Of a stretch of DNA of 37,825 bases, positions 1,260-37,825 are shown piece by piece. Every line of letters starts with the position of its first letter. Within the stretch, counting starts at the first letter, position 1. Source of the DNA: Escherichia phage T7; the sequence record MZ375271.1; one strand, 5' to 3'. The translations under genes were made by a program, and so were the position numbers. The notes under the pieces were generated by a model. That model saw nothing but the letters and a program-made list of their open reading frames with translations. It did not search any database and was not told the DNA's origin.

Positions 1260-1390
1260 TGTCTACTACCAACGTGCAATACGGTCTGACCGCTCAAACT
1301 GTACTTTTCTATAGCGACATGGGGCGGCGTGGCATAGACGAAAGGAAAAGGTTAAAGCCAAGAAACTCGCCGCACTTGAACAGGCACTAG
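1259..1390 (+). pseudogene. 0.4: Chimeric 43-codon remnant: 5' part of gene 0.4 joined to sequence from just upstream of gene 0.7 (deletion scar)
   Basis: Starts atgtctactaccaacgtgcaatacgg overlapping the 0.3 stop (taATG); reading frame runs into the 0.7 upstream region and stops at tag 1388..1390. Confidence 0.5.
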
Positions 1391-7022: not shown

Positions 7023-7045
7023 TTTTACGACTCACTAAAGGAGGT
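7023..7045 (+). promoter_or_regulatory. T7 RNAP promoter phi1.5 with non-consensus -17..-15 (ttt instead of taa)
   Basis: ttttacgactcactaaaggaggt, +1 at 7040; -14..+6 match class II promoters. Confidence 0.75.
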
Positions 7046-7428: not shown

Positions 7429-8010
7429 TGGGACTGTTAGATGGTGAAGCCTGGGAAAAAGAAAACCCGCCAGTACAAGCAACTGGGTGTATAGCTTGCT
7501 TAGAGAAAGATGACCGTTATCCACACACCTGTAACAAAGGAGCTAACGATATGACCGAACGTGAACAAGAGATGATCATTAAGTTGATAGACAATAATGA
7601 AGGTCGCCCAGATGATTTGAATGGCTGCGGTATTCTCTGCTCCAATGTCCCTTGCCACCTCTGCCCCGCAAATAACGATCAAAAGATAACCTTAGGTGAA
7701 ATCCGAGCGATGGACCCACGTAAACCACATCTGAATAAACCTGAGGTAACTCCTACAGATGACCAGCCTTCCGCTGAGACAATCGAAGGTGTCACTAAGC
7801 CTTCCCACTACATGCTGTTTGACGACATTGAGGCTATCGAAGTGATTGCTCGTTCAATGACCGTTGAGCAGTTCAAGGGATACTGCTTCGGTAACATCTT
7901 AAAGTACAGACTACGTGCTGGTAAGAAGTCAGAGTTAGCGTACTTAGAGAAAGACCTAGCGAAAGCAGACTTCTATAAAGAACTCTTTGAGAAACATAAG
8001 GATAAATGTT

Positions 8011-10423: not shown

Positions 10424-12293
<1,870 letters not shown>

Positions 12294-12296
<3 letters not shown>

Positions 12297-12316
12297 TACG
12301 ACTCACTAAAGGAGAC
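12294..12316 (+). promoter_or_regulatory. T7 RNAP promoter phi4.3
   Basis: taatacgactcactaaaggagac, +1 at 12311. Confidence 0.85.
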
Positions 12317-12355
12317 ACACCAAATTCTTTGAGTAATCAAACAGGAGAAACCATT

Positions 12356-12625
12356 ATGTCTAACGTAGCTGAAACTATCCGTCTATCCGATACAGCTGAC
12401 CAGTGGAACCGTCGAGTCCACATCAACGTTCGCAACGGTAAGGCGACTATGGTTTACCGCTGGAAGGACTCTAAGTCCTCTAAGAATCACACTCAGCGTA
12501 TGACGTTGACAGATGAGCAAGCACTGCGTCTGGTCAATGCGCTTACCAAAGCTGCCGTGACAGCAATTCATGAAGCTGGTCGCGTCAATGAAGCTATGGC
12601 TATCCTCGACAAGATTGATAACTAA
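12356..12625 (+). CDS. 4.5: Gene 4.5 protein, 89 aa
   Basis: MSNVAETIRLSDTADQWNRRVHINVRNGKATMVYRWKD...; RBS aggaga 7 nt upstream; in frame within ORF-track 12329..12625. Confidence 0.8.
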   Translation: MSNVAETIRLSDTADQWNRRVHINVRNGKATMVYRWKDSKSSKNHTQRMTLTDEQALRLVNALTKAAVTAIHEAGRVNEAMAILDKIDN

Positions 12626-12668
12626 GAGTGGTATCCTCAAGGTCGCCAAAGTGGTGGCCTTCATGAAT
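12626..12668 (+). promoter_or_regulatory. RNase III processing hairpin R4.7
   Basis: gagtggtatcctcaaggtcgccaaagtggtggccttcatga. Confidence 0.6.
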
Positions 12669-12669
12669 A

Positions 12670-12692
12670 CTATTCGACTCACTATAGGAGAT
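12670..12692 (+). promoter_or_regulatory. T7 RNAP promoter phi4.7
   Basis: ctattcgactcactataggagat, +1 at 12687. Confidence 0.8.
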
Positions 12693-12716
12693 ATTACCTC
12701 AATAGGAGAAATCAAT

Positions 12717-14831
12717 ATGATCGTTTCTGACATCGAAGCTAACGCCCTCTTAGAGAGCGTCACTAAGTTCCACTGCGGGGTTATCTACGACTACTCCACC
12801 GCTGAGTACGTAAGCTACCGTCCGAGTGACTTCGGTGCGTATCTGGATGCGCTGGAAGCCGAGGTTGCACGAGGCGGTCTTATTGTGTTCCACAACGGTC
12901 ACAAGTATGACGTTCCTGCATTGACCAAACTGGCAAAGTTGCAATTGAACCGAGAGTTCCACCTTCCTCGTGAGAACTGTATTGACACCCTTGTGTTGTC
13001 ACGTTTGATTCATTCCAACCTCAAGGACACCGATATGGGTCTTCTGCGTTCCGGCAAGTTGCCCGGAAAACGCTTTGGGTCTCACGCTTTGGAGGCGTGG
13101 GGTTATCGCTTAGGCGAGATGAAGGGTGAATACAAAGACGACTTTAAGCGTATGCTTGAAGAGCAGGGTGAAGAATACGTTGACGGAATGGAGTGGTGGA
13201 ACTTCAACGAAGAGATGATGGACTATAACGTTCAGGACGTTGTGGTAACTAAAGCTCTCCTTGAGAAGCTACTCTCTGACAAACATTACTTCCCTCCTGA
13301 GATTGACTTTACGGACGTAGGATACACTACGTTCTGGTCAGAATCCCTTGAGGCCGTTGACATTGAACATCGTGCTGCATGGCTGCTCGCTAAACAAGAG
13401 CGCAACGGGTTCCCGTTTGACACAAAAGCAATCGAAGAGTTGTACGTAGAGTTAGCTGCTCGCCGCTCTGAGTTGCTCCGTAAATTGACCGAAACGTTCG
13501 GCTCGTGGTATCAGCCTAAAGGTGGCACTGAGATGTTCTGCCATCCGCGAACAGGTAAGCCACTACCTAAATACCCTCGCATTAAGACACCTAAAGTTGG
13601 TGGTATCTTTAAGAAGCCTAAGAACAAGGCACAGCGAGAAGGCCGTGAGCCTTGCGAACTTGATACCCGCGAGTACGTTGCTGGTGCTCCTTACACCCCA
13701 GTTGAACATGTTGTGTTTAACCCTTCGTCTCGTGACCACATTCAGAAGAAACTCCAAGAGGCTGGGTGGGTCCCGACCAAGTACACCGATAAGGGTGCTC
13801 CTGTGGTGGACGATGAGGTACTCGAAGGAGTACGTGTAGATGACCCTGAGAAGCAAGCCGCTATCGACCTCATTAAAGAGTACTTGATGATTCAGAAGCG
13901 AATCGGACAGTCTGCTGAGGGAGACACAGCATGGCTTCGTTATGTTGCTGAGGATGGTAAGATTCATGGTTCTGTTAACCCTAATGGAGCAGTTACGGGT
14001 CGTGCGACCCATGCGTTCCCAAACCTTGCGCAAATTCCAGGTGTACGTTCTCCTTATGGAGAGCAGTGTCGCGCTGCTTTTGGCGCTGAGCACCATTTGG
14101 ATGGGATAACTGGTAAGCCTTGGGTTCAGGCTGGCATCGACGCATCCGGTCTTGAGCTACGCTGCTTGGCTCACTTCATGGCTCGCTTTGATAACGGCGA
14201 GTACGCTCACGAGATTCTTAACGGCGACATCCACACTAAGAACCAGATAGCTGCTGAACTACCTACCCGAGATAACGCTAAGACGTTCATCTATGGGTTC
14301 CTCTATGGTGCTGGTGATGAGAAGATTGGACAGATTGTTGGTGCTGGTAAAGAGCGCGGTAAGGAACTCAAGAAGAAATTCCTTGAGAACACCCCCGCGA
14401 TTGCAGCACTCCGCGAGTCTATCCAACAGACACTTGTCGAGTCCTCTCAATGGGTAGCTGGTGAGCAACAAGTCAAGTGGAAACGCCGCTGGATTAAAGG
14501 TCTGGATGGTCGTAAGGTACACGTTCGTAGTCCTCACGCTGCCTTGAATACCCTACTGCAATCTGCTGGTGCTCTCATCTGCAAACTGTGGATTATCAAG
14601 ACCGAAGAGATGCTCGTAGAGAAAGGCTTGAAGCATGGCTGGGATGGGGACTTTGCGTACATGGCATGGGTACATGATGAAATCCAAGTAGGCTGCCGTA
14701 CCGAAGAGATTGCTCAGGTGGTCATTGAGACCGCACAAGAAGCGATGCGCTGGGTTGGAGACCACTGGAACTTCCGGTGTCTTCTGGATACCGAAGGTAA
14801 GATGGGTCCTAATTGGGCGATTTGCCACTGA
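12717..14831 (+). CDS. 5: T7 DNA polymerase (family A, 3'-5' exonuclease proofreading), 704 aa
   Basis: [28 protein letters not shown]...; internal start of ORF-track 12570..14831 with RBS aggagaaa. Confidence 0.97.
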
Positions 14832-14876
14832 TACAGGAGGCTACTCCAAAGGCATAAAACTATAGGAGAAATTATT

Positions 14877-16432: not shown

Positions 16433-16533
16433 CGTATATTGGTCTGGGTCTTTGTGTTCTCGGAGTGTGCCTCATTTCGTGGGGCCTTTGGGACTTAGCC
16501 AGAATAATCAAGTCGTTACACGACACTAAGTGA
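16420..16533 (+). CDS. 6.3: Gp6.3 small hydrophobic protein, 37 aa, GTG start
   Basis: gtg 16420; VETVAYIGLGLCVLGVCLISWGLWDLARIIKSLHDTK; matches annotated T7 gene position and length. Confidence 0.5.
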   Translation: METVAYIGLGLCVLGVCLISWGLWDLARIIKSLHDTK

Positions 16534-16535
16534 TA

Positions 16536-16605
16536 AACTCAAGGTCCCTAAATTAATACGACTCACTATAGGGAGATAGGGGCCTTTACGATTATTACTT
16601 TAAGA
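16536..16605 (+). promoter_or_regulatory. RNase III processing hairpin R6.5 enclosing the phi6.5 promoter
   Basis: aactcaaggtccc...ggggcctttacgattattac flanking the promoter. Confidence 0.55.
16554..16576 (+). promoter_or_regulatory. T7 RNAP class III promoter phi6.5
   Basis: taatacgactcactatagggaga exact consensus, +1 at 16571. Confidence 0.9.
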
Positions 16606-16630
16606 TTTAACTCTAAGAGGAATCTTTATT

Positions 16631-16885
16631 ATGTTAACACCTATTAACCAATTACTTAAGAACCCTAACGATATTCCAGATGTACCTCGTGCAACCGCTG
16701 AGTATCTACAGGTTCGATTCAACTATGCGTACCTCGAAGCGTCTGGTCATATAGGACTTATGCGTGCTAATGGTTGTAGTGAGGCCCACATCTTGGGTTT
16801 CATTCAGGGCCTACAGTATGCCTCTAACGTCATTGACGAGATTGAGTTACGCAAGGAACAACTAAGAGATGATGGGGAGGATTGA
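16631..16885 (+). CDS. 6.5: Gp6.5, 84 aa
   Basis: ORF-track 84 aa [27 protein letters not shown]... Confidence 0.8.
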
Positions 16886-37414: not shown

Positions 37415-37462
37415 ATGTTCCGCTTATTGTTGAACCTACTGCGGCATAGAGTCAAGTCCTAA
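37415..37462 (+). pseudogene. 19.5: Truncated gene 19.5 remnant, 15 codons (canonical product is about 49 aa)
   Basis: ATG 37415 after RBS agggaggag; MFRLLLNLLRHRVKS then taa; N-terminus matches gp19.5. Confidence 0.45.
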
Positions 37463-37606: not shown

Positions 37607-37748
37607 TCTCACAGTGTACGGACCTAAAGTTCCCCCATAGGGTGTACCTAAAGCCCAGCCAATCACCTAAAGTCAACCTTCGGTTGACCTTGAGGGTTCC
37701 CTAAGGGTTTGTCTTTGGGTGTTACCTTGAGTGTCTCTCTGTGTCCCT
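37607..37748. repeat. Right terminal repeat
   Basis: tctcacagtgtacgg...ctgtgtccct; 37608..37748 identical to 1..141. Confidence 0.8.
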
Positions 37749-37825
37749 CTCTGTTACAGTCTCCTAAAGTATCCTCCTAAAGTCACCTCCTAACGTCCAT
37801 CCTAAAGCCAACACCTAAAGCCAAC

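What the first reader, a model, noticed from the sequence alone, without database searches (positions are those of the whole stretch)
12663..12720. Gene 4.7 missing: phi4.7 promoter now 30 nt upstream of the DNA polymerase start
phi4.7 (+1 at 12687; ggagatattacc) is followed directly by tcaataggagaaatcaat and the gene 5 ATG (12717). In canonical T7 a 135-codon gene 4.7 lies between them; the missing length (about 408 bp) equals that ORF exactly, so the excision looks codon-precise. This makes DNA polymerase the first gene of the phi4.7 transcript with a very short leader, possibly changing polymerase dosage.
Basis: partly seen in the sequence, partly recalled or inferred. Interest (0 to 1): 0.45.

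Follow-up and report, generated by a model that had tools for sequence, protein, structure and literature searches.

The report
Engineered gene 4.7 deletion in T7
The window is a laboratory genome-reduced phage T7 whose dispensable gene 4.7 was removed exactly from start codon to stop codon by CRISPR-assisted recombination, so the short promoter-to-polymerase gap is real but is a published, man-made feature.

Summary
The phi4.7 start is at 12687, the junction lies after 12698 and the gene 5 ATG is at 12717. The missing DNA is NC_001604 13927-14334, which is the gene 4.7 CDS from ATG to TAA (408 bp), with no microhomology at the breakpoint.

It is not a natural or spontaneous event. The window is a multiply deleted T7 with seven deletions (0.4-0.6, 1.4, 3.8, 4.3, 4.7, 5.3, 19.5). 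It is 99.93% identical to GenBank "Mutant Escherichia phage T7 clone T7_220L", and twelve clones of that series carry the identical junction. The series fits the CiPGr genome-reduction study (Yuan et al., NAR 2022), whose "cassette-gene" donors delete whole genes and which used gp4.7 as an example.

The dosage idea is untested and probably minor:
- The promoter (through +12), the R4.7 RNase III hairpin and the gene 5 ribosome-binding site are all intact.
- phi4.7 is one of many weak class II promoters feeding gene 5.
- Sibling clones that lack phi4.7 entirely still form plaques.
- A natural relative, Edwardsiella phage PVN09, has phi4.7 fused to gene 5 with a 12-nt leader.

Verdict: already known, low interest.

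The parts
12356..12625 (+). Gene 4.5 (retained). It is now the only small gene between gene 4 and gene 5.
   Evidence: ORF; annotated in sibling T7_120L; 100% identical to the T7 reference 13548-13926 block.
12626..12675 (+). R4.7 RNase III processing hairpin, intact.
   Evidence: Folds at -24.4 kcal/mol, z = -3.35, and 0 of 200 shuffles fold as well. R4.7 is named as a T7 RNase cleavage site in PMC6938266. Its exact position (about ref 13892) is from my own knowledge of Dunn and Studier 1983.
12670..12692 (+). T7 class II promoter phi4.7 (-17 to +6), with +1 at 12687.
   Evidence: Core match at 12675-12688. It maps to the annotated phi4.7 +1 at ref 13915.
12687..12698 (+). Residual 12-nt gene 4.7 leader GGAGATATTACC, kept up to the base before the former 4.7 ATG.
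   Evidence: Alignment to the wild type.
12698..12699 (.). Deletion junction. Ref 13927-14334 (the gene 4.7 CDS, ATG to TAA, 408 bp) is removed, with zero microhomology.
   Evidence: The identical junction is present in 12 deposited T7_nnL/S clones.
12699..12716 (+). Native 18-nt 4.7/5 intergenic spacer carrying the gene 5 Shine-Dalgarno sequence (AGGAGA, 12704-12709).
   Evidence: Identical to ref 14335-14352.
12684..12709 (+). Two copies of the octamer ATAGGAGA (12684-12691 and 12702-12709). In wild-type T7 they flank gene 4.7. They are the apparent recombination point in the natural 4.7-less phage PVN09.
   Evidence: window 12684 and 12702; ref 13912 and 14338.
12717..14831 (+). Gene 5 DNA polymerase (704 codons). 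It carries K404T (13927) and a synonymous P441 change (14039).
   Evidence: K404T is shared by 35 lab clones whatever their 4.7 status.
7025..7026 (.). Companion designed deletion: gene 1.4 removed exactly from ATG to TAA (ref 7608-7763).
10515..10516 (.). Companion designed deletion inside gene 3.8 (ref 11254-11545, 292 bp). The part that overlaps gene 4A is kept.
12322..12323 (.). Companion designed deletion of gene 4.3 (ref 13353-13550, 198 bp). The phi4.3 promoter and the gene 4.5 ribosome-binding site are kept.
14846..14847 (.). Companion designed deletion of gene 5.3, starting exactly at its ATG (ref 16483-16820, 338 bp). The gene 5.5 ribosome-binding site is kept.
1322..1334 (.). Undesigned deletion of genes 0.4-0.6 (about 563 bp, ref about 1353-1915), with the junction inside an imperfect repeat.
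   Evidence: The paper lists gp0.3-0.6 among its undesigned large-fragment losses.
37446..37455 (.). Undesigned deletion in gene 19.5 (ref 39429-39617, 189 bp) with the 9-bp microhomology ATAGAGTCA.
   Evidence: The paper lists gp19.5 among its undesigned losses.

Best explanation
The window is a laboratory genome-reduced derivative of phage T7, from or closely related to the CiPGr serial-transfer lineage of Yuan et al. 2022. Gene 4.7 was removed by Cas9 cutting within the gene, followed by repair from a plasmid donor whose two 50-bp arms abut the CDS. The result is a scarless ATG-to-TAA deletion. The design leaves the phi4.7 promoter through +12, the upstream R4.7 RNase III site and the 18-nt spacer with the gene 5 ribosome-binding site. 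Gene 5 therefore becomes the first cistron, both of phi4.7-initiated RNA (30-nt leader) and of RNA processed at R4.7. Shown here: the anatomy, the CDS-exact boundaries, the identity of the junction with deposited lab clones, and the dispensability of gene 4.7 and of phi4.7. Inferred: the link between the window and that particular paper, and the expectation that polymerase expression changes little. If it does change, a decrease is more likely than an increase.
For: Origin of the deletion:
- The deletion equals the annotated CDS 13927-14334 exactly, with 0 bp of microhomology.
- The same 241-bp junction matches 12 GenBank records at 100% in one piece, all named 'Mutant Escherichia phage T7 clone T7_nnL/S'.
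- The window is 99.93% identical over its full length to T7_220L.
- Other deletions in the window also follow gene boundaries: 1.4 is removed ATG to TAA, 5.3 from its ATG, and 3.8 and 4.3 are trimmed so that overlapping or downstream signals survive.
- The CiPGr paper describes 'cassette-gene' donors with 50-bp arms that delete entire genes. It picked large (L) and small (S) plaques every 10 transfers, sequenced 60 T7 mutants, uses clone names such as T7_300L, and used gp4.7 and gp5.3 as PCR-tracked examples.
- Accession numbers track transfer number: 233 = 10L, 245 = 70L, 255 = 120L, 259 = 140L, 275 = 220L, 284 = 260S.

Dispensability of gene 4.7:
- It has low essentiality across hosts in PhageMaP.
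- It is lost spontaneously under heat selection.
- It has no Pfam domain and belongs to a PHROG of unknown function.

Expression signals and context:
- The promoter, the R4.7 hairpin and the RBS are intact, and the new leader has no significant structure (z = 0.03).
- The computed energy to open the RBS for phi4.7-initiated RNA is 7.3 kcal/mol, within the wild-type range of 6.3-7.3.
- phi4.7 is modelled as a weak class II promoter, 0.01 of phi10, and no terminator lies between genes 3.8 and 6.5 (annotation).
Against: The accession-to-paper link could not be verified. Supplementary Table S10 is not held, and a full-text search for the accession found nothing. The window is not identical to any record in the searched collection: it has private SNPs and a 77-base overrun at its right end. 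By the numbering pattern it may be the one accession absent from the collection, MZ375271, which would be T7_200L, but that is a guess. Expression neutrality is not shown. For read-through RNA and R4.7-processed RNA the computed RBS opening energy rises to 10.9 and 9.1 kcal/mol, against 6.3-7.3 in the wild type. The directional-degradation model of PMC6938266 also predicts lower abundance for the gene immediately after an RNase site.
Confidence: 0.93

Rival explanations
1. Spontaneous deletion by slippage or illegitimate recombination between short direct repeats, as in classic T7 deletion mutants and heat-selected lines.
For: T7 readily loses the 4.3-4.7 region spontaneously. Cole et al. list 769-1019 bp deletions with 7-8 bp homologies. 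Sibling clones T7_140L and T7_260S carry the TTCTTGA deletion. Two other deletions in this window are of this type: 19.5, with 9-bp homology, and 0.4-0.6.
Against: The 4.7 junction has zero microhomology and coincides with both CDS ends. An 8-bp repeat, ATAGGAGA, flanks the gene, and a spontaneous event could have used it, but both copies are retained. Twelve clones share the identical junction, including T7_70L, which still has 3.8, 4.3 and 5.3.
Confidence: 0.03
2. A natural T7-like phage that never had gene 4.7, or lost it in the wild.
For: Natural relatives without 4.7 exist. Edwardsiella phage PVN09 has phi4.7 fused to gene 5, and Klebsiella phage Kpn-11mx goes from the gene 4.5 homologue straight to the polymerase gene. 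gp4.7 homologues are found in only 559 phage records.
Against: The flanks are 100% identical to laboratory T7. The junction differs from the natural one: PVN09 joins inside ATAGGAGA and has a 12-nt leader. The whole genome is 99.9% identical to lab clones and carries six further deletions typical of that experiment.
Confidence: 0.02
3. The deletion was retained because it beneficially retunes DNA polymerase dosage, with gene 5 K404T as a linked compensatory change.
For: The gp4.7 deletion rose in frequency during the transfers. The window carries gene 5 K404T. The gene 5 RBS is predicted to be less accessible in read-through RNA.
Against: In CiPGr, deletions are enriched because they escape Cas9 cutting, not because they raise fitness, and the paper reports that gene loss in T7 is mostly detrimental. 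K404T occurs in 35 clones, including ones that keep 4.7 (MZ375249, 250, 258, 262, 293) and ones that lack phi4.7 (MZ375284). It is absent from the delta-4.7 clones T7_70L, MZ375264, 267 and 270. It is therefore a lineage marker and not specific to delta-4.7.
Confidence: 0.02

Closest known systems
CiPGr 'cassette-gene' T7 mutants (Yuan, Shi, Jiang, Ma; Nucleic Acids Res 2022; GenBank MZ375233-MZ375294, clones T7_10L to T7_300S)
   Same: The delta-4.7 junction is identical in 12 clones. The companion deletions (1.4, 3.8, 4.3, 5.3, 0.4-0.6, 19.5) are the same. The lineage SNPs, including gene 5 K404T, are shared. Overall identity to T7_220L is 99.93%.
   Different: The window is not byte-identical to any record held. 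It has private changes: phi10 +1 G>T, gene 1 V337A, gene 5 P441 synonymous and gene 16 D316G. It also has 77 extra bases at the right end.
Edwardsiella phage PVN09 (MZ220766), a natural Teseptimavirus without gene 4.7
   Same: The R4.7-like hairpin and the phi4.7 promoter lie directly upstream of the DNA polymerase gene, so the polymerase is the first cistron of that promoter's transcript.
   Different: The junction lies inside the shared octamer ATAGGAGA, giving a 12-nt leader with a single copy of the repeat. It is 88% identical, a natural isolate, and was not engineered.
Spontaneous T7 4.2/4.3-4.7 deletions (Cole et al. 2021, heat-selected lines; also siblings T7_140L and T7_260S)
   Same: They remove the dispensable gene 4.7 and shorten the distance between upstream genes and gene 5.
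   Different: They use 7-8 bp microhomologies, remove 770-1019 bp including gene 4.5 and/or phi4.3, R4.7 and phi4.7, and do not respect CDS boundaries.

Membership tests
Designed CiPGr cassette-gene deletion (CRISPR/Cas9 plus homologous-recombination donor) | Deletion endpoints coincide with the boundaries of the targeted gene (whole-gene deletion). | tested here: met
   Deleted interval 13927-14334 equals the annotated gene 4.7 CDS.
Designed CiPGr cassette-gene deletion (CRISPR/Cas9 plus homologous-recombination donor) | Scarless junction, with the 50 bp on each side identical to wild type and no repeat needed at the breakpoint. | tested here: met
   Window 12320-12698 is 100% identical to the reference. 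The first mismatch to the right of the junction is at 13927. Microhomology is 0 bp.
Designed CiPGr cassette-gene deletion (CRISPR/Cas9 plus homologous-recombination donor) | The same junction recurs in independently picked clones of that experiment. | tested here: met
   Twelve MZ3752xx clones match the 241-bp junction at 100% in one piece. The clone names follow the paper's scheme.
Designed CiPGr cassette-gene deletion (CRISPR/Cas9 plus homologous-recombination donor) | The window's own accession and the donor-arm sequences are listed in the paper's supplementary tables. | not testable with these tools
   No supplementary files are held, and the accession search returned 0 papers.
Spontaneous microhomology-mediated T7 deletion | A short direct repeat (about 7-10 bp) at both endpoints, with one copy retained at the junction. 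| tested here: not met
   There is 0 bp of homology at the 4.7 junction, and both ATAGGAGA copies are retained. The feature is met by the 19.5 deletion (9 bp) in the same window.
T7 class II promoter phi4.7 (functional element retained) | The -17 to +6 promoter sequence and the initially transcribed region are identical to wild-type phi4.7. | tested here: met
   Window 12670-12698 is identical to ref 13898-13926, and the core is found at 12675-12688. Promoter activity itself was not measured.
Natural 4.7-less Teseptimavirus architecture (PVN09 type) | Promoter and gene 5 RBS fused through the single shared ATAGGAGA (12-nt leader), in a genome diverged from T7. | tested here: not met
   The window keeps both octamers, has a 30-nt leader, and is about 99.9% identical to lab T7.

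The most novel reading that the evidence does not exclude
Placing gene 5 directly behind R4.7 and phi4.7 may measurably lower polymerase output. Two mechanisms could act. Gene 5 would sit at the 5' edge of the RNase III-processed mRNA, where directional decay is strongest. In read-through RNA its Shine-Dalgarno sequence can also pair with promoter-derived sequence. This would contribute to the fitness decline of genome-reduced T7, making 'non-essential' gene 4.7 partly a spacer or buffer for gene 5 expression and not only a protein-coding gene.
Probability: 0.12. Interest if true: 0.3.

Novelty: already known. Interest (0 to 1): 0.08.

Why it matters
It matters mainly for bookkeeping. The feature marks the window as an engineered, genome-reduced T7 and not a natural variant, so nothing about its gene content should be read as evolution in the wild. 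It confirms that gene 4.7 is dispensable in laboratory hosts. It also shows that the T7 polymerase gene tolerates very different upstream contexts: a 438-nt leader, a 30-nt leader, a 12-nt leader in PVN09, and no dedicated promoter at all. A residual point of interest is whether a whole-gene deletion in a tightly packed, RNase III-processed operon has polar effects on its neighbour. That is testable but was not addressed in the source study.

Tried and rejected
- A full-text search for accession MZ375233 found no papers, and the supplements of the CiPGr paper are not held. The link from accession to paper therefore rests on clone naming, numbers and design, not on a listing.
- The heat-adaptation paper (PMC8923235) was checked as a possible source and rejected. 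Its deletions are different, being microhomology-mediated and 769-1019 bp long.
- An Rfam scan of 12200-13000 on both strands at E <= 1 found nothing.
- Pfam gives nothing for gp4.7, and PHROGs gives only an unknown-function family.
- I tested whether gene 5 K404T is a compensatory change tied to delta-4.7 and rejected the idea, because it occurs irrespective of 4.7 status.
- The minus-strand ORF 12383-12763 and the upstream in-frame extension of gene 5 (12570 onward) were considered and dismissed as mechanical ORFs. T7 has no leftward genes, and the native gene 5 RBS and ATG are intact.
- Folding of the new leader showed no structure beyond chance (z = 0.03).
- Trying to identify the window with a held record failed. 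MZ375257 and MZ375259 have the same length (37825) but a different structure, the TTCTTGA deletion. MZ375271 is not in the collection.

Full report
**1. What is in the sequence**

The region 12626-12720 reads as follows. Gene 4.5 ends with its stop codon at 12623-12625. A strong hairpin follows at 12626-12675. Next comes the T7 promoter phi4.7, with its core CGACTCACTATAGG at 12675-12688 and +1 G at 12687. The leader GGAGATATTACC runs to 12698. It is followed by TCAATAGGAGAAATCAAT (12699-12716) and the gene 5 ATG at 12717.

BLAST of the whole window against NC_001604 puts window 12698 at reference 13926 and window 12699 at reference 14335. The missing interval, 13927-14334, is exactly the annotated gene 4.7 CDS of 135 codons plus TAA, 408 bp. 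A base-by-base check shows that the junction cannot be slid in either direction, so there is zero microhomology. In wild type, phi4.7 +1 lies 438 nt upstream of the gene 5 ATG. Here the distance is 30 nt.

**2.

The window differs from wild-type T7 by seven deletions:
- about 563 bp covering genes 0.4-0.6, with the junction in an imperfect repeat
- gene 1.4, removed exactly from ATG to TAA (7608-7763)
- 292 bp inside gene 3.8, sparing the part that overlaps gene 4A
- 198 bp of gene 4.3, sparing phi4.3 and the gene 4.5 RBS
- gene 4.7, removed exactly
- 338 bp of gene 5.3, starting at its ATG and sparing the gene 5.5 RBS
- 189 bp in gene 19.5, with a 9-bp microhomology

These sizes, an 18-bp loss in each terminal-repeat copy, an 8-bp loss near the right end, one missing first base and a 77-base overrun at the right end add up exactly to 37825.

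Five of the seven deletions follow gene boundaries while preserving downstream signals. That pattern indicates design, not accident.

**3. Provenance**

The 241-bp junction segment matches twelve GenBank records at 100% in a single piece. All are titled "Mutant Escherichia phage T7 clone T7_nnL/S" (MZ3752xx). Wild-type T7 records match it only in two pieces, 408 bp apart. Over its full length the window is 99.93% identical to T7_220L.

Clone T7_10L is still full length. T7_70L has delta-4.7 but keeps 3.8, 4.3 and 5.3. T7_120L and T7_220L have the same set of deletions as the window. The series is therefore a time course of accumulating modular deletions.

This fits the CiPGr study (Yuan et al., NAR 2022, PMC9825161) on several counts:
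- Cas9 spacers and 2 x 50-bp recombination templates were supplied on pooled plasmids.
- The phage populations were transferred serially 300 times.
- Eight large (L) and eight small (S) plaques were picked every 10 transfers.
- Sixty T7 mutants were sequenced.
- Clones are named in the style of T7_300L.
- gp4.7 and gp5.3 were used as PCR-tracked examples.

The paper also lists gp0.3-0.6, gp4.3-4.7 and gp19.5 as undesigned large-fragment losses. These correspond to the two microhomology-type deletions in the window and to the large deletion in its siblings.

I could not confirm the accession list, because the supplements are not held and an accession text search found nothing. Accession numbers track transfer number. 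The only number in the range that the collection lacks is MZ375271, which would be T7_200L, so the window may be that record. This is a guess.

**4. Spontaneous and natural alternatives**

Spontaneous T7 deletions in this region are well documented, and they use 7-8 bp repeats. Siblings T7_140L and T7_260S carry one of them, the TTCTTGA deletion. It joins the end of gene 4 to the last 41 nt of gene 4.7 and removes phi4.3, 4.3, 4.5, R4.7 and phi4.7.

Gene 4.7 is itself flanked by an 8-bp direct repeat, ATAGGAGA, at reference 13912 and 14338. A spontaneous loss would be expected to collapse this repeat. The window keeps both copies, at 12684 and 12702.

A natural relative shows what the collapsed version looks like. 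Edwardsiella phage PVN09 reads ...ATTCGACTCACTATAGGAGAAATTAATATG, with phi4.7 fused to gene 5 through one ATAGGAGA and a 12-nt leader. Klebsiella phage Kpn-11mx, a Teetrevirus, also goes from the gene 4.5 homologue and the hairpin straight into the polymerase gene. gp4.7 homologues occur in 559 phage records, so the gene is an accessory one.

The window's junction is neither of the spontaneous type nor of the natural type. It is of the designed type.

**5. How it works, and the dosage question**

Shown:
- The promoter is intact from -17 through +12.
- The R4.7 hairpin is intact (-24.4 kcal/mol, z = -3.35).
- The gene 5 Shine-Dalgarno sequence (AGGAGA, 12704-12709) and its spacing are unchanged.
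- The 30-nt leader has no structure beyond chance (z = 0.03).

Established knowledge, supported by PMC6938266 and the reference annotation:
- phi4.7 is one of about ten weak class II promoters.
- There is no terminator between genes 3.8 and 6.5.
- R4.7 is an RNase cleavage site.

Inference: most gene 5 mRNA, from whichever promoter, already has its 5' end near R4.7 or phi4.7. The deletion therefore makes gene 5 the 5'-proximal cistron of all these RNAs, not only of the phi4.7 transcript.

My thermodynamic estimate of the cost of opening the gene 5 initiation region (-15 to +13) is as follows:

| mRNA context | Opening energy (kcal/mol) |
|---|---|
| Wild-type contexts | 6.3-7.3 |
| Mutant, phi4.7-initiated RNA | 7.3 |
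| Mutant, R4.7-processed RNA | 9.1 |
| Mutant, long read-through RNA | 10.9 |
| PVN09, 12-nt leader | 5.7 |

The directional-decay model of PMC6938266 predicts the lowest abundance for the gene immediately after an RNase site. If there is an effect, both lines point to a modest decrease, not an increase. Both are predictions only.

Three observations argue against any large effect. Clones lacking phi4.7 and R4.7 entirely are viable, and T7_140L was a large-plaque isolate. PVN09 exists in nature. Gene 4.7 also scores as low-essentiality across hosts.

The rise of delta-4.7 during the transfers reflects escape from Cas9 and is not evidence of a benefit. The authors report that gene loss in T7 is mostly detrimental and that wild type outcompetes even their best mutant.

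**6. Gene 5 K404T**

The window carries A>C at 13927, giving K404T. The change is found in 35 lab clones. These include clones that keep gene 4.7 and clones with the large deletion that removes phi4.7. It is absent from several delta-4.7 clones, such as T7_70L. It is a lineage marker that swept the population after about transfer 70-120, not a change specific to delta-4.7.

**7. Verdict**

The feature is a published, engineered, CDS-exact deletion of a dispensable gene. It is already known and of low interest.

Noticed in passing
window 20930: G>T at +1 of the phi10 promoter, the strongest class III promoter, which drives the major capsid gene. TATAGGGAGA becomes TATATGGAGA. It is not present in T7_10L, T7_70L or T7_220L. 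T7 RNA polymerase strongly prefers G at +1, so this private mutation could lower or shift capsid transcription.
   Followed up: partly
window 10487-10534: The 292-bp deletion in gene 3.8 puts the 3.8 start codon and its first 9 codons in frame with gene 4A. This creates an ORF for a primase/helicase with 16 extra N-terminal residues ([21 protein letters not shown]...). Sibling GenBank records annotate this 582-aa form.
   Followed up: partly
window 12570-12716: Removing the gene 4.7 TAA, which was in frame with gene 5, leaves the gene 5 frame open for 147 nt upstream. The deposited sibling records therefore annotate the DNA polymerase 34 codons too long, starting at a TTG at window 12615 inside the end of gene 4.5. 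This is probably an annotation artefact.
   Followed up: partly
window 37607-37825: The right end runs through the 160-bp terminal repeat and continues for about 77 bases into sequence that belongs after the left terminal repeat. This indicates assembly across a concatemer junction or a circular overlap, not the true genome end. The first base of T7 is also missing at window position 1.
   Followed up: partly
window about 100-105 and about 37705-37710: An 18-bp deletion inside the terminal repeat (ref about 103-120, GGGGATGACCCTTGGGTT) is present in both copies. An 8-bp loss (ATCCTATC) lies near ref 39690. The terminal-repeat deletion is shared with T7_220L.
   Followed up: no
window 13927: Gene 5 K404T is shared by 35 clones of the lab lineage and by no other T7 record. 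It appears to have swept the evolving population irrespective of 4.7 status. Its functional meaning is unknown.
   Followed up: yes
window 2998-35486 (scattered): There are about 20 further non-synonymous changes, concentrated in gene 1 (V137A, Q184R, V337A), 7.3, 11, 12, 16 (four changes), 17 (K214E, D540Y), 17.5, 18.5 and 19. Many are shared with later clones of the series, consistent with adaptation or hitch-hiking during 200 or more transfers on Cas9-expressing MG1655.
   Followed up: partly
L009 / L010 (MZ375259, MZ375284) positions 650-720: The sibling clones' deletion of about 1 kb at TTCTTGA is the same event that Cole et al. reported at position 13,278 in an independent heat-selected T7 line. 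It appears to be a recurrent deletion hotspot.
   Followed up: partly
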